A stretch of DNA of 64,000 nucleotides, from positions 1,440,001 to 1,504,000 of the forward strand of contig CP000069.1 of NCBI GenBank assembly GCA_000002445.1, given 5' to 3'. Positions within the stretch are counted from its first letter, which is position 1. Each line of letters begins with the position of its first letter. A program made the translations under genes and the position numbers. Below, piece by piece: positions 1 to 50,195 of this stretch. Under the pieces are notes generated by a model that had not been told where the DNA came from, did not search any database, and saw only the letters and a list, made by a program, of their open reading frames with translations. The DNA is from Trypanosoma brucei. Lineage: Eukaryota.

Positions 1-2899
1 CCTTTCAAAAGTGATGTTTAATACGTTTTTTTTTGGAACCTTCCTCGTTCCTGTCCACCTCTTTATTTATTTTGGTAAAATTCTGTAATTGAAGGATGAT
101 GGAAAATAGACTAGGCGCATATGATTCGCTAGTTGATTTTAGTCAGAATTTGACACGTGCAGCATCGCTGCTTCTTCCCAGAGAGACAACCACATCATCA
201 CCGAAACACAAAGTTACACCAAAATATTATTGTAGAAAATAACTGTCATGCGGTAATGTTTTCATCCAGTTAACAAATCTATCACATTTGAGCGGCTTTA
301 GCTTTGTACCTTCCCTCCGCCATGTTGTTGTTGTTTCTTCCATAAGCATATATCACTTCATTTGATGTTTTCTGTTTAGTTTCGCCTCTGCGCCAAATTC
401 ATCACCACATCCCTTCGCCTGCAGTGCCGCTGTGGTAAAGAATAAATAAATAAATATTTATGTAGGTCACAGAGATTTTACATCTAATTAAATTATGCCA
501 CTTCATCCATTATTTATTTTTTGTTTTATTAAACCCACGTATCTTTACCGCGAAACAACAAATGACATATCGCAATAACCGCAGCATTCCATTTGTTTTC
601 TCCCTTATTATGTTAATAAATGCATGTGTTACTTGATAAAAGTGCAGAGCCCGTGATGCATGTGCATGGAATTTCAACAGTATGGCACTTATGGTGTAAC
701 ACAATATCCGTAACACACATACAAATACACACAGAATGGTTTCTTTCGGGCTCAAAATACGTTTTTCATTTTAAAATTCACATTCCACACCTTGTAAAAC
801 ATATACTGGCGAAGGAACTTTTTTGTTTGATACCATCCAAACTCTATCCGCTTATATGTTTAATAAACTGGACTAATTATATTTTTCATATACTTATATC
901 ACAACGGAATTAACGATAATTTGAATGTCGCATCTATTCTTACACTCATAATTTTTATACTTCCGTTTTCTTCCTCGAAACACGTCATGTCTTTTTGAAA
1001 AATGTCCTCATTTGTTTTTATATTTCAACGAATATATGAAAAAGCGAATATTCATATAATCTCTATGATTATCATCCTCTCTAGTGGTGTTGCATTTTTA
1101 TTGGAAGTAAAGAACAAAAGTAGTTTATTGTGTGTAACAACTGAAACATTATTTTTGAGGTGCATAATAGATTTCCGTTAAGTCAAGAAATATTGTGAAG
1201 CGACCGTACTGACTGCTTTTTATTGCGTGGAAACAGTGAACTTATCAATGTATCTTCGGATACGGTGGTGATTCATATTATTCCTTCAACATCCTTTTGA
1301 AGTTAATAGTGCTAAAAGCATCGTATTACACTTTACATGCATTCAAATGCAAACACTTCGACGAAAGCACCTTTTCAGCCTGGAATTATACATTTTTTCC
1401 AATACGTTATTTATTTTGCTGCAGTTACTGTCATGAAACTCTTGCAGCCACCCAATGCTAGCATATGAAACGGCATAGAGGTGCGTGCATGAAACTTGAC
1501 GAATAGATTTGTTAAAATGCAAATGATAGTTATTATACATCAGATGCGTTATTCAAATCATAACAGATATGCTCATGCTTTTCTTCACTTATGATGTATA
1601 TTTTCTTCGTTGTAACAGCGCACAGTGAGATCAAATTATAATCTTTTGATGTGATTACAGATGAGAAATCCTTCCTAAAGTGTCTGAAGTTGTACAAATC
1701 ATATGTATTTATCTACTTTCATTTATTGGGAGAAGCAGTCAAGCGCACATGTGTTTTGTTGATATGTAAACACGAATGAAGAGAGAAGTGAAGCAACTCC
1801 AACATTAGGCAAGCTTCCATGAGCATATAAGTTGTGGAATTAAAGGAAATGGTTGTAAAGTGTGAATAAAGAAAATTCGAATTGCCGTTGCATAAAATAA
1901 CAGAATATGATCTTTTTTTTGTGAAGTATTATCTTTAAGATATAAAAAGACACTTAAAAATATACGCGGATACAAATAACAGGATGATTGTCCAACTTGT
2001 GCACCTCTGACCTCAGTGCTTGTGATTGTATATTAATCGTGCCACTAGATGTCACCGCAAAAAAAATAACATCAGTTTTTGTTACACATACTCGTTTCAT
2101 ATCCATTATTTTGTAAACACGTCTATTTTTTCTTATTAGTTATTAGAGTAGTATGTTGCGATGACGCGTCTCTTGATTAGTTGCCCGTTATTAATTTGCT
2201 TATTTCTATATCCATTTGTTTATTTACTTACGTTAGCTTACACTAAGTTTACACATAATAAACAAACAACGTTATCCCTGCATTTTCCTTCGTGAAGGAG
2301 ACACTAAGGGAGAACACGCGTGATACAATTAATTTCTTTATTATTTTGTCCAATGGGTAGTGATAACTAACGATGCACAACATCTTATATTGCAGTTACT
2401 TATACTTGAGTGTAAAGTGTAATATACATTGCCTTCTTTCTTCATCCAATCAGCACGTCTCTCCCACGTCCATCCCGACACTTCTTTATCTGCCTATCTT
2501 ATTTTTTTAATTCCTTTGTCCGGAAAGGCGGTGCTACACCTTTATCCTTTGGTATGGTTTTCTTGGCCGCTTGCCTTGTGCTTCTCCTGATGGCTTTATT
2601 TAGTGCATCCGCATCCTTTATTTTTTCTTTAGTCTTGTTGAAAATGAAAGTATCACTAACCTTCCTGAAGTTATTACAATGCGCTTTATTCCACGCGGAT
2701 AACGCCCTGGCAGGTTTTGAGGGTGAGGTCACCTCTGCACCACAACTCGCAAAAACGCCAAAAGTGACCCAAAAATGGTCGCTATCAGGACTCAGTGTAA
2801 TTTTCCAATTTAATACCTCACAGTCTGTACATTGCGATGTCTCTTAAGGGAAATACATCCGTTCCCGCCTGACGACGGGTTTCTTTTCTGGCATTTGTT

Positions 2900-3518
2900 C
2901 CAACTATGTTTTTGAAACCATCGATTTTCTAGGAAAATAAACTGAAGTGGCTGTCAAATTAAAATCAGCTGAAAATATAAACGTTGCCGAGACTCTTTCT
3001 AGTAGACACTCCTCCTTCGAACTTTGGATGACTTTCACGACACCTTTAACTAAAATTGATACCACACCACCATGTGAAGAACCTGCCATCCTACATGCTG
3101 GTATCTGCCTATTCTAAGAATTTTACGTCCCGCTGGAGCCGAGTGAATCTCCTGCAGCAGGCAAAACAGCATACAATCCTCGTTGAGCTTCTTCTTCAAG
3201 GCGAGTCGTTGTACCTGAGGTAACGACCCATTGTTCCACTGGGCTCCACGAATCATATGGCAGGGATTATGTTCCACATTTCCCCTTAGTAGTATAAGCC
3301 TATGTATTCCAATCGAAGCGCGCTCGCACGTGCAGGGAAACATTCTAATATATTTCTTCACCCTAGAGTGCCGATACTGCTGCTTACTCCTGCTCTGGTC
3401 ACCTAAAGCCTGCTACCCGCCCCAATCCTGTCGGACAGGGTATAATACGGGCACTTGTCTTCCTCCGATGAGACGGTGTACTGGACCCTGGCGCCACAAT
3501 GAGGTGGCCGGCGTCACC
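2900..3518 (-). mobile_element. Divergent 5' fragment of an ingi-type non-LTR retrotransposon (DIRE/ingi-like)
   Basis: 3420-3518 aligns to the ingi 5' end at 49490-49590 (gatga.acgg.gtactggaccctggc.cca...ttgaggtggccggc.tc.ccaggg) and ends at the same ccaggg terminus. Minus-strand translation 3050-3361 (LLRGNVEHNPCHMIRGAQWNNGSL...CLLQEIHSAPAG) is homologous (~40% by eye) to ingi ORF seg1 (LLSGDVEENPCLSFHGMQWNCAGL...CLLSETRMTPGEA). Similarity continues weakly to ~2900. Confidence 0.5.
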
Positions 3519-3562
3519 AGGGATTTTTCATAATTTTCATAAAATTTGGAAATATCCTTTTA

Positions 3563-3945
3563 ATGCTAAAATTCTACCAAACTCACAAAAGCGGAAACAA
3601 TCAGAGCAATTATCTGATTGAAGAGAAAACTACCATTTCGACACTTCTCCTTTTCTGGTTCTGTTTCACCCTCTTTGCCTTTTCTCCAGCCACAAACGGG
3701 GGCTTGGCCGGGCGTGTTCTATTCTTCCAAGCTGTTTTTTTAGTATGGCCAGTACATTTATCCTCTTTCTTTCCTTCCGCTTTCACTCCCTCTTTAACTT
3801 TGCACTTTCCGTCTTGGAATTCGCAGCCATTTTCGTCGCTGTACACGCCAACTGACTTATCTTTGCATTTTTCTTCTGCTATTTCGGGGTCCAATGTGGT
3901 GGCTGTTGGTTGGTGCTCAAGACTCTGTGTATACAAAAACATTGA
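3563..3945 (-). pseudogene. VSG: VSG C-terminal-domain fragment (3' orphan), frameshifted GPI tail
   Basis: ORF 3610-3942 encodes a Cys-rich VSG C-domain (CEFQDGKCKVKEGVKAEGKKEDKC). The GPI signal (FLFNQIIALIVSAFVSLVEF*) is in a shifted frame at 3563-3640. No N-domain lies upstream. The ingi fragment starts 45 nt beyond the stop. Confidence 0.6.
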
Positions 3946-13899: not shown

Positions 13900-14035
13900 T
13901 CTCACTAACAACACTCTCCTATTATTATTATTATTACTGCTCTTATTATAATATTAGTATATACACACTCATAACACTATCCTATCATTACTATCATTGT
14001 TATTAGTGCGATTAATATTATTATTATAACTCTAA
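13900..14035 (-). repeat. 70-bp repeats, two tandem copies
   Basis: Two consecutive units each containing cac(t)aacactctcctat + (tta)n + tattataatatt.gtatatacacactca. Confidence 0.75.
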
Positions 14036-27969: not shown

Positions 27970-28155
27970 TACTACTACTACTATTTTATTATTATTACTA
28001 CTCTTATTATAATATTCGTATATATACACACTCACAACACTCTCCTATCATTATCATTATTATTATTATAATTATTACTGCTCTTATTATAATATTCGTA
28101 TATACACACACTCACAACACTCTCCTATCATTATCATTATTATTATTATAACGCT
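27970..28155 (-). repeat. 70-bp repeats, 2-3 tandem copies
   Basis: Two near-identical units ...ctcttattataatattcgtatatatacacactcacaacactctcctatcattatcattattattattataat..., preceded by (tac)/(tta) runs. Confidence 0.85.
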
Positions 28156-40780: not shown

Positions 40781-42244
40781 TTATTTTAGAAGCAAAACTA
40801 CAAGCAAAAGAGGGCTTTTATGAATGAAAATAGAATTGCTTCCCGTAGTGTTTGTTGTTTTCCCATCATTCCCTTCTGTTTCTTGGTTTGATTTTTCTAG
40901 TTTTTCTTTCACCTCCTTTTTCAACTCACACTTTTTGGTGTCAGTATTAAAACTGCACCCCTTATCCTTTAGGCCTTTACATTTATCTTCATCATCTTTT
41001 GCTTCACCGCAAATTTTTTCTGTTGCCTTTAGATCTTGGTGTTTGGTAGACTCTTCTAGCCTTTTATCAAGCGTTGCGAAGTCTTGGGATAAACGTTGCT
41101 GGTAGTAGCTCAACAAGTTGGTTAATTCGATGCTGTTTTTGATGTCCTCGAGTTTTGTAGGAGTTTGTCGCATCGCTGCACCTTTTGGAATATCCTCTTT
41201 TTCAATTAATGTTATAATTGTGTTGATGGTATCCACATTTGTATTGGAGAAAACGGTTTCTATTGCTTTCTTTTCATCGCTGCCTTGGTGGTCTTTTGCT
41301 TCGCCGAACAAATTTTGCGCGGCTTCCTTCAGTGCCGCTCGTTCTGTGAGGTCGCCGCTTTCGTTGGCGTACTCTGTGGGCAGCGTCCGGTCGACCAACT
41401 TTATGGCTGCATGTGCCTCCGCCCAGTGCTTTAAGCCGTCGCTGGTCGTTTTGATTAGGTTTGCCTTGTTTGCCGTTGCCAGTTCCCCCGCCGTGTTGGG
41501 AATCGTCAGGTACCCAGCCATCACCGTCACCGCTGCATCTGTTCCCCCGCTCTTGGCGAAACCCTTGCTGTTGTGCGCCGTTGTTAGGTGGCATTCTTTG
41601 GTCGCCGCTGTTGGTTGGTGCTTGTTGCCGCCGGTCCCTTCGACTAAGTTTATGTATCCTGCGGTTGTTATGTGGGTCGGTGTCCGTCGCGTTGCGGTGA
41701 TTGGGCTTTGTGTTAGCTTGCACTCTGTTTGGCCGAGTTTTGTCGTAGCGCTGCGTGTCACTGGCGTGTCTGCGTTTTCATCTGCCAGTAGGCACGCGTT
41801 GTTGCTCCCGTCGACCGTTTGCTCCAGTAGCTTAAGGAAATCGTCGACCAGACCCTTTACGTAAGCGCTCCGACTGGCGGCTTCTACTTGTTGTTTTATA
41901 TAGGTGTCTTTTAGTTGCCTAACTGCTGTGGCTGCTTTGGCTTCGTAGGCTGCTGCTATGGTGATAGCCGCTTTTGTCCATTTGTGCTTGGGGTTTTTTA
42001 GGCTGAAAATCCTTGCCCGCTTCGCTGCCGCGTCGAAGTCTATTGTGGCTGCGATCATCTCCGTCGCTTCTTGTAGAACGTGACCTTCTATGCCGTCTAA
42101 TTCTTCGCTTACTTGACATAGCGGTTCCCACGTGGTTTTCTTTATGCCGACGCCTGTGGCGGCGTCTACGCGTTTAAGCCCGGTTGCGAGAAGCAGCGTC
42201 ATCACGAAAAGCACTAATGGCTGCAACCATTGCGAGCTCTGCAT
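40781..42244 (-). CDS. VSG: VSG, apparently intact (A-type, 487 aa)
   Basis: True ATG (cat 42242-42244). Signal MQSSQWLQPLVLFVMTLLLATGLKRVDA. N-domain TTWEPLCQVSEELDG. C-domain CGEAKDDEDKCKGLKDKGCSFNTDTKKC. GPI signal GSNSIFIHKSPLLLVVLLLK. Confidence 0.85.
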   Translation of the reverse strand: MQSSQWLQPLVLFVMTLLLATGLKRVDAATGVGIKKTTWEPLCQVSEELDGIEGHVLQEATEMIAATIDFDAAAKRARIFSLKNPKHKWTKAAITIAAAYEAKAATAVRQLKDTYIKQQVEAASRSAYVKGLVDDFLKLLEQTVDGSNNACLLADENADTPVTRSATTKLGQTECKLTQSPITATRRTPTHITTAGYINLVEGTGGNKHQPTAATKECHLTTAHNSKGFAKSGGTDAAVTVMAGYLTIPNTAGELATANKANLIKTTSDGLKHWAEAHAAIKLVDRTLPTEYANESGDLTERAALKEAAQNLFGEAKDHQGSDEKKAIETVFSNTNVDTINTIITLIEKEDIPKGAAMRQTPTKLEDIKNSIELTNLLSYYQQRLSQDFATLDKRLEESTKHQDLKATEKICGEAKDDEDKCKGLKDKGCSFNTDTKKCELKKEVKEKLEKSNQETEGNDGKTTNTTGSNSIFIHKSPLLLVVLLLK

Positions 42245-44099: not shown

Positions 44100-44111
44100 T
44101 ACTCACTTGAT
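44100..44111. repeat. 12-mer tactcacttgat, copy 1 of 3 (flanks the RIME-A-type fragment)
   Basis: Identical 12-mer at 44100-44111, 44337-44348 and 49591-49602, each abutting an ingi/RIME terminus. Confidence 0.7.
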
Positions 44112-44336
44112 GGATGACACTGCTGATGGCACACTGGCACGTGCCAAGGGACCGACAAATGAAAAACGGTGTCCCAGCAAGACGCTGCTGATCCCTGTGC
44201 TGTATGATGCCGTAGCCGGAACAAAGCAGTGTTCCCTATGAGAGGAACTCTGCTGGCTCTTGGCTTCCCCCGATGATACGGGGTACTGGACCCTGGCACC
44301 ACGTTGAGGTGGCCGGCATCGCCAGGGTACTCACTT
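44112..44336 (-). mobile_element. RIME-A-type fragment (first ~225 bp of an ingi/RIME 5' end), 3'-truncated
   Basis: ~95% identical to the ingi 5' end at 49366-49590. Ends at the same ccaggg terminus. Bounded on both sides by tactcacttgat. Confidence 0.75.
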
Positions 44337-44348
44337 GATTTTTTGGAA
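44337..44348. repeat. 12-bp target-site duplication of the ingi (3' side), followed by a T5-6 run that is the poly(A) tail on the minus strand
   Basis: tactcacttgat then ttttt, then the ingi 3' terminus begins at 44354. Confidence 0.7.
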
Positions 44349-45145
44349 TTTTCTTCGTGCCTTCGTGGGAGTTTCCCCCCACTGGCGCGGCCATCAGCCA
44401 TCACCGTAGAGCCCTGAGATGCTATCGGTCTGGCGACTGTGGCAGAGTCTCCCTTTTTTATTCATCCTAACACACCCTCTATAATTTTTGTTGTAGCTCC
44501 GCAGTTGAACGGAATACAGCAGATGGGGCGAGAAGCCCCCCTCACCCCGGACTCTCCCAAAGATGTCAATTAGCAATCCTTTTGTTTTGATTTTTGTTAT
44601 TCGTTTATTATTCTCTTCCCCTCTTTCTGTTTCTGTTGCTTGTTGATTGCATACCCCCTCTGTCTCTGAGGGTGTCTGGACTATTCCTGCGTCCGGTGCT
44701 TTTCCTGCTGGCTCCACACTCGGCAATAAGGGGGGAAGTTGCAGAAGGGAAAGTGGGTTGTATGACTTTTACCTTAGGTGAGGACTTCACCTGTGGCCGG
44801 CTCCGTTCAACCGCAATGAGAAACTGTGCCAGCCTTTTAGAGAAACATACATCCTGCACACACACACCTTCTACCGCAAACCTGACACGTAACTCCTTCA
44901 AACCGGGACAGCTCATCAGGTGCAGCGACGTTTCTTCGCAGTCGCCGCGTTGGCTCGTAACAGTGCGCTCTGCTCCCATACCGTGCATCTTCTTTTGATG
45001 TAGGGTGAGGCCAGTTTTGCTAGCACACTGCCTTCCGCCTGTCTGGCACACCAACATGGATGTGTTTGTATGCGGGGAATCAGTGGCACCCAATTTTGTG
45101 ATTTTGCTGCATTTAAGCTCGACTCCCTCACCTTAGTGGAAAGCC

Positions 45146-45706
45146 TTACAGTGTCGGATGAGGGAGGCCCCGCAACTGAGCACTTTTTTGGCACACACCA
45201 CACTGCACCTCGCCCTTCCCCGGGACGTCAACGTTTCCCTCACGGGCACGCTTACGAGGGAATTGCACCAACACCACGGTACCGTCCTCCGTCACTATGC
45301 TTTTATGTTTGAATTTCTTGTGTAGTGACAGGGAAGAGTGTGTACCGAAGCTCGCCTCGCACAAGTCACATTGAAACGGCAGCTTCCGTGTATCCTGAGA
45401 GGCTGGCGCTGTTGGGACGCTACCATCTCCTTGCAATGAGTCTTCGTTCTCTCGCCCCCTTTTCACGCGGCAACTACCGCTGCCTATGCCATGTATTGTT
45501 CTAAGGTGGTGTAGTAGTCGGGCTGGCACTGCGAATTTGGAGGCACAGATGGTACAATGAAGCACCTGCGGTCTCATCGGGACTCGTGTGCTCGATGGTA
45601 GAGGAACGATCGCCACCACTGGAGGGGGCTCCGGGGGGGATGTCCACTGCGGGTGTTGCATCGCCGTATTTGATCCTCCGGAGGGCATCAGCTCGCACAA
45701 AGCCAT
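45146..45706 (-). pseudogene. ingi ORF fragment: C-terminal C2H2 zinc-finger region
   Basis: HCTICASKFAVPARLLHHLRTIHG and FQCDLCEASFGTHSSLSLHKKFKH. Confidence 0.7.
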
Positions 45707-47942
45707 GTTTGTTTACCATATGCGTTACAGCACTCGAGCGGCATTGGTATGTGGCATCACATTCCGTACATTTGGTCGGTTCGGAGGTTCTTTGAAGAGT
45801 GCGTGTCGCAACAGGTGGGGCCGTTTGTATTGTTGGCCCTATCGCTGCATGTTGCGGGTTGCACCATCGGCACTGTGGAGGCACACTCGGGTTGATCTTT
45901 CGCAACATCCATCCATAGTGTCTTGAAGACCCAACCCGAAAGCGTGCCAGTGCTGTTTCTTCTTCCCTCGTCAGTTCTTCCTTATGTTTTGTTGGAAAGT
46001 GGTTGCCCGTGATACCAAACCTATGAGTGTTCTCATGGACTTCTTCCGACCTAAGCACTCGCTTCGCATAAGCAATGATGTCGGGGATCCATGTGTCTCG
46101 CAACTGTGGTAAATCTGCGGCCTTTTTGGCCATTTCATCGCAAACCTCATTCCGTTTCATGCCACAATGGCCAAACACAAATTGCAGTCGGATACACACC
46201 TTTCTTCTCTGAACTTGAAGCAGAAGCCTCCATAGTCGTCTTAGAATTGGGTCCGTTACGGCTAGGGGGCCTGTCTGCAGTGCTGTTAACATTGACAGCG
46301 AGTCAGAGAAGATGGACAACCTGCTCGGTGTGCTTCTGTATGCCGGAAGCCATTTCAGCAGCCTTTGCAGTCCTATCTCTAATGCTACGCATTCCGCTCT
46401 GTAACTGCATGAGAGTTCCCCTGCTCCTGTCTTGGGTGCGCAAATCAGCGTGTTGTTTCTGTAGAGCAGGGCAGCTGCTCCGGACTTCTCACCGAGGGAC
46501 ATGGATCCATCAGTCCACAATTCGTAGTGCTCTCGCCGCGGTGGCTCCTTCCCCCTCCGTGCAAAATGCCGTTCAATCCACTTTTCGGAAGCCTCCCTTT
46601 TGACATCGTCAGGGTCATCAGCGCACACAGGCTTTATCTGCGTGTGAAATATCGGTCGGCAGCTGTGGCGGAGCGTCGATGTCTCTAGTGGGTGCTCGCG
46701 TGGCTCAATGCGGAGGTGGGGGTAGGACCGCATGATGCGGGAATGTAGGACTCTGACTGGATGTTTGCTGTGGTATACTTCTTCAGCACTGCGCCGTAAA
46801 CATCCGCCTCGTGACTCACACATCAGCATGAATTTCATGCTGCGCACAAGAGTGGTCGTCTTGAGTGGCAGGAGGTTTGCTTCCAGCAGAGAGTCCTCTT
46901 TGCGCGTCCCATGCGGTATGCAAGCTATGATGCGACTGGCTTTGTGTTGTGCTGCTGCAAGGAGGTCGCGACTTCGTTCCGAAGTGTCCCAGTACCATAC
47001 CTCAATGCCATACATGGTGTGTGCCTGTACGAGTGCTAGATAAAAAGCTCTCAGTACTTGTCTTCTTGGCTCCCATGTAGAAGCTGAGATGGCTGCTATC
47101 TGCAGTAGTCGGAAGTCCATCTTGCGTCTCGTTTCTGCAGCATGTGTTGCCATCCCCTGCAGACACTGGAATGTTACTCCTAGAAGCTTCGGTGTCCTGT
47201 CAGCTCCTATTCTTTTGCCGTCCAGTTGTAATGTAAGGGGGTGGCGCTCTATAAACCCGAAGAGTGTGCACATTGTTTTCGCTACATTGACAGACATGAA
47301 GTACTCTTTTGACCACTGTAACACCACGGTTAGGCCGCATTGTAGTGTGTGGTTGATGACATCCCTCTCTGTGTGCCTCGCAAGTAGCGTCAGGTTGTCT
47401 GCAAAGAATCCGTGCTGCAGTAACGGCACTTCTGCAAGGCATTGGCTCAACGAGTTCATGACAATAATGAACATGATTGGACCAAGGACAGTTCCTTGTG
47501 GCACTCCTCGCTCAAATGTTCTGCTTCTGGAGAGCTTCTCCTTGAATCTCACTCTGCCAGTTCGGTTACTCAGAAATGATACGCACCACTTCACAATGTG
47601 GGGTGATACCTTCATTCTGTGCATTTCCCTCGCAATTTTGTCGTGGTCTACTGTATCAAATGCCTTCTCGTAGTCGACGAATACAGCACCCGTACGATAT
47701 TGGTGCGTGGGGCGGCAGAGGGCAGCGCGGACGTGCAGGAGTTGTTCGAGCGTTGAGCATCCGGGGCGAAAGCCTGATTGCTGCGGCGTCAGCTGGAACT
47801 CAACAGTGTCTCTAAGCCTCGTGGCAAATATGCGCTCCATGACTTTGCAGAGACAGCTCGTGAGCGTCACAGGCCTGTAAGAATCGAGGTCCTCCGCCTT
47901 TTTCCGGCCTTCAGGATGGGGATGATAACACCAGTCTTCCAT
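45501..47942 (-). pseudogene. ingi ORF fragment: reverse transcriptase domain
   Basis: 813-aa ORF with RT motifs (…GPIMFIIVMNSL…, QHGFFADNLTLLARH). Confidence 0.8.
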
Positions 47943-49090
47943 GCAGGCGGCACGACTCCCGTTCGTAGGCTCTCATTGAATAGCCTCACAACAACATTCA
48001 GCGCTGTTCTGCCGAGATGTTGCAGTGCCTCGTTGTATAAGCAATCAGGTCCGGCTGCGGATCCACTAGGTAGCAGTTTGATCGATCTCCGTAGTTCAGC
48101 CATCGTGATGGGACTGAACTCACTCGCTATCGTCTTTATTGGTGCCGGTGGGTGTGAGTCGGGGTGCCTTCTTGCGCGGGAAGAGTACAGTTTACTGAAC
48201 CTCTCAGCTTGACGGTAGTCCGTGATGGCCGCGTTATCAACAAGTACAGCCGGTGTGGTTAGTGGTCGTGGCGCATATACCTTCTTGACAATGTGCCAAC
48301 TGCAGCGGTCTGACACCGCAAGTCTGGAGCATAGCGTGCTCCATCTCTTCTTTGTGGTACGGTCCAGGATCTGCTTACGCGTGGCTACCAACTTTTCCCT
48401 TCGGTGGGAGGGTCCGCATCCAGCGATCTCTTCATCGAGTTTCGCGAGCTCAGGTGTCCAATGTGGTGGCGTTGCTCTGCAGCCACGGGGGACGGAGACC
48501 TTCGTCGCAATGCGGATGGCGGAGCTCAATTTCTGTTCCAGGGTCTTGACGTTCTTCTCTCTACCAATTTTCCTGCAGAGCTCGTCAACCTTGAGACGGA
48601 AATTCCTCCAGTCAGCTTTTAGCCATGCGTACATGGGCTTTCGAAGCCGCGGGCAGCTCAGTGCATCTGTGTCGTCTCCAAAGATAACGTCGAAAAATAT
48701 GTGATGGTGATCGCTATCGGGAGAATACAGCGATGTCCACGTGTACACTGTGCAATTCCTTGACAGTGTCACATCAGGGGTGGACTCCCCGTGGTGGCGC
48801 GCGTACCTGGTGCACTCACCAGTGTTGCAGACCAGAAACTGGTTGTCAATGCACCACTGTGTGAGGGTTTCACCCTTGGTATTTGGTGGGCTCGCGCGAT
48901 CCCATGCCAACGCGTGTGCGTTAGCGTCTGCACCGATGAGCTGGGCACCGTCAGTCGTCAGAAGCGTATCTAGGTCAGTTGCCGTGAAGGTGTGTTTTGG
49001 TGGGATGTATGCCGACGTGACAGTCAGCGCCGTTCCACGTGCAAGGTGAATTGTTGCATGCACTTTTTCAATGCGACCAACAACGGCCAT
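47867..49090 (-). pseudogene. ingi ORF fragment: AP-endonuclease domain
   Basis: Separated from the N-terminal segment by a stop and from the RT segment by a frameshift at ~47867-47942. Confidence 0.75.
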
Positions 49091-49590
49091 ACCGGTCTCG
49101 ACTGGTATGTCCTCTCACTAGTATTGATACACCTCATCCTTTGCAGTTACGAGCTATTCCGTGATGTTGGTAGCCAGCAACGCTAAAGCAAGCCGCCTCT
49201 CCAGGCGTCATCCTTGTCTCGCTCAACAGACAAAAGGCGATCCGCTCATCAACAAGGGTTTTGTGGAGTGCTAATCTCTTTCCTTGAGATAGCCCGGCGC
49301 AGTTCCACTGCATCCCGTGAAACGACAGGCAGGGATTCTCTTCCACATCACCGGACAGCAGCATCTTAGTGCGGATGATATACTGCTGATGGCACGCTGG
49401 CACGTGCTCAGGGACCGACAAATGAAAAACGGTGTCCCAGCAAGACGCTGCTGATCCCTGTGCTGTATGATGCCGTAGCCGGAGCACAGCAGTGTTCCCT
49501 ATGAAAGGAACGCTGCTGGCTCTTGGCTTCCCCTGATGATACGGGGTACTGGACCCTGGCACCACGTTGAGGTGGCCGGCATCGCCAGGG

Positions 49591-49602
49591 TACTCACTTG
49601 AT
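49591..49602. repeat. 12-bp target-site duplication of the ingi (5' side)
   Basis: tactcacttgat directly abutting the ingi 5' terminus. Confidence 0.7.
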
Positions 49603-50087
49603 CTCAACCCTCCGCATTTAAGTCGGCCACCATATTTCAAACTATATGTTACACCATTTCTTACGCAGCATCTATTCACTTATATTTGACATAGGAAGCA
49701 CAAACCACCCCGTATTATTTCTTTCTGTGCCGCTTTGAGCTTTTGCGTGTCCATTTGTTTCTTTCTGTATCTTCTTCCCTATTTTTGTCAACTGCATCAC
49801 TCGCTTTGAGTAACACAGAGACTCTATTTGACATGTAACAACTAATTCTGTCTCTAACCACTATATTTCTTCACCTTCTCAATGTGCATCATGGTACTCA
49901 TCACCATGTTTATGTACGAAAATGTTCGTATTCCCTATTCTTTTTCTTTTGTATCTCTTATTTTCCTTCAATAACATCAAACGTGCTCACAGTCTGTCTT
50001 ATTACTTCTTCTACTCACTCATTTACTCAAATTATGCCATTGCAATTATTTTAAACTCCTTATTTTGGGGGTTATTTCAGCTGGCAG

Positions 50088-50195
50088 CCCTCTTATTTTA
50101 ATATTCGTATACACACTCACAACACTATCCTAGTATTATCATTATTGGCATTTCTATATTATTATTAACACTACTTCTACTATAGCCCTAACTGA
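50088..50195 (-). repeat. 70-bp repeat (1-2 copies)
   Basis: cttattttaatattcgtatacacactcacaacactatcctagtattatcattattgg...attattattaacact...atagccctaactgata. Confidence 0.75.

What the first reader, a model, noticed from the sequence alone, without database searches (positions are those of the whole stretch)
44100..49602. Degenerate full-length ingi with an intact 12-bp TSD, followed head-to-tail by a 3'-truncated RIME-A-type fragment flanked by a third copy of the same 12-mer
The ingi body (44354-49590) is bounded by tactcacttgat on both sides plus a short A-tail. That is a textbook target-primed reverse-transcription footprint.

Immediately downstream sits a ~225-bp copy of only the first part of the element (44112-44336). 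It again ends at ccaggg and is followed by the same 12-mer (44100-44111).

Non-LTR retrotransposition produces 5'-truncated copies, not 3'-truncated ones. So this arrangement is more likely a recombination product, for example unequal exchange between two elements inserted at the same preferred target, or a partial duplication. It could also be a second hit into the regenerated target site.

The arrangement TSD-fragment-TSD-An-ingi-TSD is unusual and would date the events relative to each other.
Basis: partly seen in the sequence, partly recalled or inferred. Interest (0 to 1): 0.6.

Follow-up and report, generated by a model that had tools for sequence, protein, structure and literature searches.

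The report
Two retroposon insertions sharing one target
A broken full-length ingi retroposon and a 216-bp, tail-less copy of the ingi/RIME 5' end sit head-to-tail in a Trypanosoma brucei VSG array, each bounded by the same 12-bp target duplication; same-site tandem insertion is already described for this family, and only the 3'-truncated copy with its own exact duplication is unusual.

Summary
On the minus strand the order is:
- T1, ATCAAGTGAGTA (49602-49591)
- ingi, 5,246 bp (49590-44345)
- A5 tail (44344-44340)
- T2 (44339-44328)
- ingi/RIME nt 1-216 (44327-44112)
- T3 (44111-44100)

The 12-mer occurs nowhere else in the window. It does not precede four canonical ingi/RIME copies fetched from T. 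b. equiperdum, so it is flank, not element.

The window matches TREU927 chromosome 6, 1,440,001-1,504,000, where a published table already lists this hit.

The fragment is not a copy of this ingi's 5' end. They differ by 9 substitutions and one indel, and four fragment variants recur in other family copies.

Only the L-T1 junction matches the published Tbingi target signature: 7/10, against 3/10 at T2 and T3.

Best reading: two independent target-primed insertions into one preferred site, fragment first and ingi second. The fragment was already truncated when it inserted. Its junction shows no microhomology, it has no tail, and its duplication is exact.

Tandem elements separated only by a 12-bp duplication are already reported as frequent in T. 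brucei. Interest is low to moderate. I could not compare other strains.

The parts
49603..49624 (-). L flank: the 22 nt upstream of the first-strand nick. Together with T1 it matches the published Tbingi/TbRIME (ingi4) target signature at 7 of 10 positions.
   Evidence: The signature is taken from PMC3820030. Only 0.59% of window positions score 7 or more.
49591..49602 (-). T1: 12-bp target-site duplication ATCAAGTGAGTA, at the 5' side of the ingi.
44345..49590 (-). Full-length but degenerate ingi (5,246 bp). It runs from CCCTGGCG... at the 5' end to ...GAAGAAAATTCC at the 3' end.
   Evidence: for the ends; 97.4% identity to an intact copy, with 5 frameshifts, 1 in-frame insertion and 3 stops. 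Exo_endo_phos_2, RVT_1, RNase_H and zf-C2H2 on ORF pieces 47867-49090, 45501-47942 and 45146-45706.
49512..49590 (-). 79-nt 5' signature (Pr77 hallmark) of the ingi, with one private substitution at nt 57.
   Evidence: The role of the signature is from PMC4035085 and PMC3820030.
44340..44344 (-). A5 tail of the ingi.
   Evidence: Canonical copies have about A10 at the same place.
44328..44339 (-). T2: the same 12-mer, between the ingi tail and the fragment.
44112..44327 (-). 216-bp copy of ingi/RIME nt 1-216. It has an intact 79-nt signature, no 3' region and no A tail.
   Evidence: The Data in Brief table row 'NC_007279 1484112-1489590, element 1-216' covers it.
44100..44111 (-). T3: the same 12-mer, directly abutting the truncation point and followed by unique R flank.

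Best explanation
Two separate target-primed reverse-transcription events hit the same preferred ingi target (L|ATCAAGTGAGTA|R). The target lies inside a silent VSG cassette on T. brucei TREU927 chromosome 6.

Proposed order of events:
1. A 216-nt RNA, or a cDNA started at nt 216, was inserted. It consisted only of the ingi/RIME 5' end. This gave L-T-fragment-T-R.
2. The endonuclease signature lies mostly in L, so each insertion regenerates an intact L-T junction.
3. A full-length, already defective ingi RNA was then inserted at that junction, mobilised in trans. This gave L-T-ingi-A5-T-fragment-T-R.

Shown by the data: the anatomy, the exact 12-bp triplication, the independent sequence lineages of the two 5' ends, and the match of L-T1 alone to the target signature.

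Inferred: the order of the two events, and that the 3' truncation arose during retrotransposition rather than afterwards. Two routes would give that: an RNA ending at nt 216, or internal or end-to-end initiation without base-pairing.
For: - The exact 12-mer occurs three times, only at element boundaries.
- The 12-mer is absent upstream of four canonical copies.
- The fragment and the ingi 5' end differ at 9 substitutions plus a TA indel. Four fragment variants are shared with other copies, 3 are private to the fragment, and 2 substitutions plus the indel are private to the ingi.
- L-T1 scores 7/10 on the published ingi4 signature, against 3/10 for A5-T2 and 3/10 for fragment-T3. Only 0.59% of window positions reach 7 (signature).
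- PMC3820030 states that tandem retroposons separated only by the 12-bp duplication are frequent in T. brucei. It attributes such arrays, from experiments on human retroposons, to independent insertions at one recognised site.
- The fragment/T3 junction (CATCC|ATCAAG, where the canonical element reads CATCC|GCACTAAG and a tail would read AAAAA|ATCAAG) has 0 nt of microhomology.
- An ordinary 3'-truncated ingi remnant in T. b. equiperdum (L004, nt 1 to about 301) has no downstream duplication. Exact duplication at a truncation point is therefore not the default.
- No displaced ingi 3' part exists elsewhere in the window.
- There is a precedent for a mobile 5'-only derivative in this clade: T. 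cruzi NARTc is L1Tc with a 3' deletion (PMC2323293).
Against: - The fragment has no A tail, whereas every described ingi-clade element ends in an A stretch.
- The part of the TREU927 table I read listed no other row ending at nt 216, so there is no sign of a family or of recurrence. Only part of the table was read.
- Target specificity is only relative. One canonical copy with a good duplication sits in a 3/10 site, so the inferred order is probabilistic.
- Private divergence is the same for the ingi (1.3%) and the fragment (1.4%), so age gives no independent support for the order.
- No other strain, no empty site and no fragment-only site could be examined.
Confidence: 0.55

Rival explanations
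1. Two complete elements were inserted in tandem at the same site: the ingi upstream and a RIME or ingi downstream. A later deletion removed the downstream element from nt 217 through its A tail.
For: 3'-truncated ingi 5' pieces are common in TREU927. The table has many rows marked '5' ok, 3' tr', ending at nt 184, 197, 206, 220, 243, 301, 321, 420 and so on. One such piece, fetched from T. b. equiperdum, is a plain remnant.
Against: The right-hand deletion end would have to fall exactly at the tail/duplication boundary, to the base. The junction has no microhomology. From my own knowledge, not tested here, trypanosome end-joining normally relies on microhomology. The comparison remnant L004 has no duplication at its break.
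Confidence: 0.2
2. Two insertions occurred at the same site on different homologues or sister chromatids: an ingi on one and the fragment on the other. Unequal exchange within the 12-bp duplication then brought them into tandem.
For: It gives the same final arrangement and the same independent sequence lineages. The array is recombinogenic: a paralogous L-T-ingi(1-3771) copy lies 32 kb away on the same chromosome.
Against: It needs crossing-over within 12 bp, and it still needs a fragment bounded by the duplication to exist first. It is less economical than re-use of the regenerated L-T site, which is the route favoured in the literature.
Confidence: 0.1
3. Partial duplication: the unit T plus ingi nt 1-216 was copied from this same ingi, by slippage or template switching between T1 and T2, and then diverged.
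For: Both 5' ends share the non-majority A at the CATAGGG site. The unit T+1-216 is repeated in direct orientation.
Against: They differ by 9 substitutions plus an indel in 216 nt. At four of those sites the fragment carries variants seen in other, unrelated copies. There is no homology that could bring a switching polymerase back from nt 216 to T. The shared A also occurs in L002_ingiB, so it is a variant of the family.
Confidence: 0.07
4. Assembly artefact in the reference chromosome.
For: The region is repeat-rich and subtelomeric. No reads could be inspected.
Against: The fragment has its own substitutions and a unique junction to the R flank. A collapse or mis-join of ingi reads would give identical sequence and would not produce exact 12-bp duplications on both sides.
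Confidence: 0.03

Closest known systems
Tandem ingi/RIME (and L1Tc/NARTc, Tvingi/TvSIDER1) arrays separated only by the 12-bp target-site duplication (Bringaud et al. 2004 and 2006, as summarised in PMC3820030)
   Same: The elements lie head-to-tail and share an identical 12-bp duplication. The site matches the endonuclease signature. The literature explains such arrays as independent insertions at the same recognised target.
   Different: In those arrays the partners are complete elements with A tails. Here the downstream partner is a 216-bp 5' piece with no 3' region and no tail.
TbRIME (500-bp non-autonomous partner of ingi)
   Same: The first 216 nt are shared, including the 79-nt signature. 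The fragment is bounded by a 12-bp duplication.
   Different: RIME is ingi nt 1 to about 248 joined to the last 250 nt or so, plus an A tail (L001). The fragment stops 32 nt before the RIME A/B junction and has neither a B half nor a tail.
T. cruzi NARTc (0.25 kb; L1Tc with a 3' deletion; PMC2323293)
   Same: It is a short derivative made only from the 5' end of the autonomous element and is mobilised in trans. This shows that the clade's machinery does not need the LINE's own 3' region.
   Different: NARTc has an A tail and more than 100 copies. The fragment has no tail and is the only row ending at nt 216 in the parts of the TREU927 table that I read.
Ordinary 3'-truncated ingi remnants (for example T. 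b. equiperdum L004, nt 1 to about 301)
   Same: It is a 5' end with an intact signature that breaks off inside the element.
   Different: L004 has no duplication at or near its break. The window's fragment has an exact one abutting the break.

Membership tests
Tbingi (ingi4 subclade non-LTR retroposon): element 44345-49590 | Conserved 79-nt 5' signature starting CCCTGGCG | tested here: met
   78/79 identical to four canonical copies.
Tbingi (ingi4 subclade non-LTR retroposon): element 44345-49590 | About 5.25 kb, colinear from end to end with a canonical ingi, and ending ...GAAGAAAATTCC(A)n | tested here: met
   5,246 bp, 97.4% identical over its full length to L002 ingi; A5 tail.
Tbingi (ingi4 subclade non-LTR retroposon): element 44345-49590 | [quoted passage not shown] | tested here: not met
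   All the domains are detectable, but the ORF is broken by 5 frameshifts and 3 stops. This is a degenerate, non-autonomous copy of the family.
Tbingi (ingi4 subclade non-LTR retroposon): element 44345-49590 | 12-bp target-site duplication and the ingi4 upstream signature | tested here: met
   The 12/12 duplication is exact. The signature matches at 7/10 positions, in the top 0.6% of window positions.
TbRIME: fragment 44112-44327 | 5' half (ingi nt 1 to about 248) joined to the 3' half (last 250 nt or so of ingi) | tested here: not met
   Only nt 1-216 are present. No ingi 3' sequence follows.
TbRIME: fragment 44112-44327 | Terminal A stretch | tested here: not met
   CATCC is followed directly by the duplication.
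TbRIME: fragment 44112-44327 | 12-bp target-site duplication | tested here: met
   T2 and T3 are identical 12-mers.
NARTc-like 5'-only mobile derivative: fragment 44112-44327 | Multiple dispersed copies with the same 3' end | tested here: inconclusive
   The TREU927 table shows only this one row ending at nt 216. Only parts of the table were read, and no genome scan was possible.
Same-site tandem retroposon array | Adjacent elements in the same orientation, separated only by the shared duplication | tested here: met
   ingi-A5-T2-fragment, with nothing else between them.
Same-site tandem retroposon array | The partners are independent insertions, not copies of each other | tested here: met
   Nine substitutions plus an indel; four fragment variants are shared with other family members.

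The most novel reading that the evidence does not exclude
The 216-bp copy is a genuine retrotransposition product of a tail-less RNA, or of a cDNA started internally, that contained only the first 216 nt of ingi/RIME. If so, the T. brucei ingi machinery needs neither the element's 3' end nor a poly(A) tail. It would recognise its template through the 5' Pr77-containing region, as PMC3820030 speculated. The end at nt 216 lies in the loop of a predicted 10-bp hairpin, which could mark an RNA cleavage or initiation point.
Probability: 0.4. Interest if true: 0.45.

Novelty: new member of a known kind. Interest (0 to 1): 0.25.

Why it matters
The result mostly confirms known behaviour: the ingi endonuclease re-uses preferred sites and builds tandem arrays that share one 12-bp duplication.

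The modest added value is the tail-less 5' fragment with an exact duplication. If more such copies exist, they would be natural evidence that template choice by ingi-clade reverse transcriptases depends on the 5' signature rather than the 3' end. PMC3820030 says this question awaits a trypanosome retrotransposition assay.

The pair also sits inside a VSG cassette, between the 70-bp repeat and an apparently intact VSG. Any 70-bp-repeat-initiated conversion of that VSG would therefore carry 5.5 kb of retroelement with it. That last point is inference only.

Tried and rejected
- **Cross-strain comparison.** I made exact-protein look-ups for the flanking VSG, a 90% TREU927 paralogue, both large ingi ORFs, a TREU927 RIME ORF and the ORF spanning A5-T2-fragment-T3. 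All returned nothing. Only the T. b. equiperdum assembly was reachable. Its chromosome-6 ingi (P0044) is 93% identical, so it is not the orthologue.
- **Truncation at the RIME A/B junction.** Rejected. The junction is at about nt 248.
- **Microhomology or internal priming by the target primer.** Rejected. The only nearby partial match (ACTAAG against ATCAAG) would predict a different junction.
- **Displaced ingi 3' half elsewhere in the window.** None found.
- **Rfam family for the 5' ribozyme.** There was no meaningful hit, only a sub-threshold mir-1249 match.
- **Dating by private substitutions.** No resolution: 1.3% for the ingi against 1.4% for the fragment.
- **Key papers.** Bringaud 2004 (MBE) and 2002 (Eukaryot Cell) are not held in the library. 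Their content is cited only through later papers.
- **Duplicate rows in the Data in Brief table.** These turned out to be chunk-relative versus absolute coordinates, with offsets of k x 175,000 - 70, and not extra loci.
Full report
**What is there**

The feature lies on the minus strand. Read 5' to 3' on that strand, the parts are:
- L flank
- T1, ATCAAGTGAGTA (49602-49591)
- ingi (49590-44345), from CCCTGGCGATGCC... to ...GAAGAAAATTCC
- A5 tail (44344-44340)
- T2, the same 12-mer (44339-44328)
- a second CCCTGGCG... start that runs 216 nt (44327-44112) and stops at ...GCAGTGTCATCC
- T3, the same 12-mer (44111-44100)
- unique R flank

The 12-mer occurs exactly three times in 64 kb, even with one mismatch allowed, against 0.25 expected by chance. 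The first 40 nt of the element occur exactly twice, both times abutting the 12-mer. The description is otherwise accurate.

**Context and provenance**

All long ORFs in the window are on the minus strand, and those scanned against Pfam near the element are VSG or VSG fragments.

The element pair sits about 490 bp downstream of a single VSG 70-bp repeat at roughly 50090-50170. It lies 1.86 kb upstream of an apparently intact 487-aa VSG (40781-42244). It is therefore inside a silent VSG cassette.

A published table of ingi/RIME BLAST hits in TREU927 (PMC4660242, supplement 1) contains three matching rows. The first is 'NC_007279 1484112-1489590, element 1-216, minus', with a 100-nt upstream flank identical to the window's L-T1. 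The second carries the flank ...GAAGAAAATTCCAAAAAATCAAGTGAGTA and ends at 1484327. The third is a 69-nt signature at 1443454-1443522, which matches window 3454-3522.

The window is therefore TREU927 chromosome 6, 1,440,001-1,504,000, and the hit is already catalogued, although that table does not interpret it. The same table shows a second locus with the identical L-T flank followed by ingi nt 1-3771 at 1,517,892-1,521,661. So L-T-ingi was later copied within the array.

**Is the 12-mer flank or element?**

I fetched canonical copies from the T. b. equiperdum assembly:
- a RIME (L001)
- an intact ingi encoding a 1,656-aa protein (L002)
- a second ingi (L002, minus strand)
- a third ingi (L003)

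All four begin at CCCTGGCG behind unrelated sequence, and two of them have their own duplications of about 12 bp. The 12-mer is therefore target DNA.

**The ingi**

It is 5,246 bp long and colinear end to end with the intact copy at 97.4% identity. Its indels are +2 (nt 209), -2 (475), -1 (1688), +3 (2808), +1 (3950) and +1 (4399). It has stops at codons 28, 149 and 1482. Pfam finds the endonuclease, RT, RNase H and zinc-finger pieces on separate ORFs. It is a full-length but dead copy, presumably mobilised in trans or decayed in place.

**The fragment**

It equals canonical nt 1-216 with no indel. The 2-bp difference from the neighbouring ingi is a private TA insertion in the ingi.

The RIME A/B junction in L001 lies after ...GGTGATGTGGAA, at about nt 248. 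The fragment therefore stops 32 nt before that junction. It is neither a RIME half in the strict sense nor assignable to ingi rather than RIME.

The fragment and the ingi 5' end differ at nine substitutions:
- At four sites (nt 79, 86, 104, 195) the fragment's base is found in other family copies.
- At three sites (107, 182, 210) the change is private to the fragment.
- At two sites (57, 183), and for the indel, the change is private to the ingi.

The two 5' ends therefore descend from different source copies. This argues against a partial duplication of this ingi and against an assembly collapse.

**Why a second hit at the same site, and in which order**

PMC3820030 gives the Tbingi/TbRIME target signature as AxxxxxxxTxxxGTxGGxTxxx^xTxTxxTxxxxx, where ^ marks the first-strand nick and the last 12 nt are the duplicated bases. 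It also states that tandem retroposons separated only by the duplication are frequent in T. brucei and T. cruzi, and it attributes such arrays, on experimental evidence from human retroposons, to independent insertions at one recognised site.

L-T1 matches 7 of the 10 specified positions. Only 0.59% of all window positions do as well. A5-T2 and fragment-T3 each match 3 of 10, which is background.

Most of the signature lies upstream of the nick. Each insertion therefore regenerates one good site, at the 5' junction, so a newcomer lands upstream of the resident. That makes the fragment the older event and the ingi the younger. This step is an inference. Specificity is only relative, because one canonical copy with a duplication sits in a 3/10 site. 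Private divergence does not separate the two events either, at 1.3% for the ingi and 1.4% for the fragment.

**How the 3' truncation arose**

The break is CATCC|ATCAAGTGAGTA. The canonical element continues CATCC|GCACTAAG, and a tail would read AAAAA|ATCAAG. No base can be assigned to both sides, so there is no microhomology for a deletion or a template switch.

A post-insertion deletion would have to end exactly at the tail/duplication boundary. For comparison, an ordinary 3'-truncated ingi piece in T. b. equiperdum (L004, nt 1 to about 301) has no copy of its upstream 12-mer anywhere in the 4.5 kb downstream. No stray ingi 3' half lies elsewhere in the window.

An exact 12-bp duplication at the break is what target-primed reverse transcription produces when cDNA synthesis starts at nt 216. 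Two routes would give that: the RNA ended there, or the enzyme initiated without base-pairing. I consider this the most likely route, at about 0.6 given two insertions.

There is a precedent for 5'-only templates in the clade. T. cruzi NARTc is L1Tc with a 3' deletion (PMC2323293). PMC3820030 argues that the 5' signature may be what the machinery recognises.

In the predicted fold of canonical ingi RNA, nt 216 lies four bases into the 11-nt loop of a 10-bp hairpin (CAGCAGUAUC / GAUGCUGCUG). That is compatible with cleavage in a loop but proves nothing.

**Rivals**

- Deletion after tandem insertion of two complete elements (0.2). Truncated pieces are common, but the break is base-exact and lacks microhomology.
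- Unequal exchange joining two alleles (0.1). This changes only how the two came to lie side by side.
- Partial duplication of this ingi (0.07). The sequence lineages contradict it.
- Assembly artefact (0.03).

**Limits**

I could not examine any other strain, the paralogue or any reads. Six exact-protein look-ups failed. The two primary papers on ingi site specificity are not in the library. Rfam has no model that hits the 5' ribozyme region.

**Verdict**

The ingi part is textbook, and the tandem arrangement with a shared duplication is a described property of this family. The locus is in the reference genome and in a published hit table. The one unusual detail is a tail-less, 3'-truncated copy bounded by its own exact duplication. 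It is a single example. It is worth a genome-wide search, but it is not in itself a new kind of element.

Noticed in passing
window 2427-3522 (minus strand): A degenerate ingi-related element (DIRE-like). The intact ingi protein P0040, aa 2-406, matches at 25 to 40% identity. Its 5' end at 3450-3522 keeps an 85%-identical Pr77-type signature. The TREU927 table lists it as 'RIME A 1-69'.
   Followed up: partly
window 50090-50170 (minus strand); similar copies near 13940, 22211, 28001-28141, 52730, 59298, 62531: VSG 70-bp repeat units mark cassette boundaries. The ingi and fragment lie between this repeat and the VSG at 40781-42244, so they would travel with that VSG in a 70-bp-repeat-initiated gene conversion.
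   Followed up: partly
window 40781-42244 (minus strand): An apparently intact A-type VSG of 487 aa. It is 93% identical to a Lister 427 VSG (S5G7H4) and 90% identical to a TREU927 'atypical' VSG on another chromosome. No identical protein is on record.
   Followed up: partly
window about 49358-49390 (minus strand); L002 10193-10223: Canonical ingi RNA nt 201-231 is predicted to form a 10-bp hairpin. Its 11-nt loop holds the fragment's truncation point. Its 3' arm holds the ATG that precedes the 2A-like motif.
   Followed up: no
window about 49320-49350 (minus strand): The 2A-like 'DVEENPGP' motif of ingi is degenerate in this copy, which reads DVEENPCL.
   Followed up: no
outside the window: TREU927 chr 6 (NC_007279) 1,517,892-1,521,661: A second locus has the identical 100-nt L-T flank followed by ingi nt 1-3771, 32 kb from the first. 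This is a segmental duplication whose end lies inside the ingi. No second A5-T-fragment junction is listed.
   Followed up: partly
L004 3993-4295 (T. b. equiperdum chr 4): An ingi 5' fragment (nt 1 to about 301) joined to unrelated sequence with no downstream duplication. The same locus appears in the TREU927 table as 'NC_007277 ... 1-301'.
   Followed up: yes
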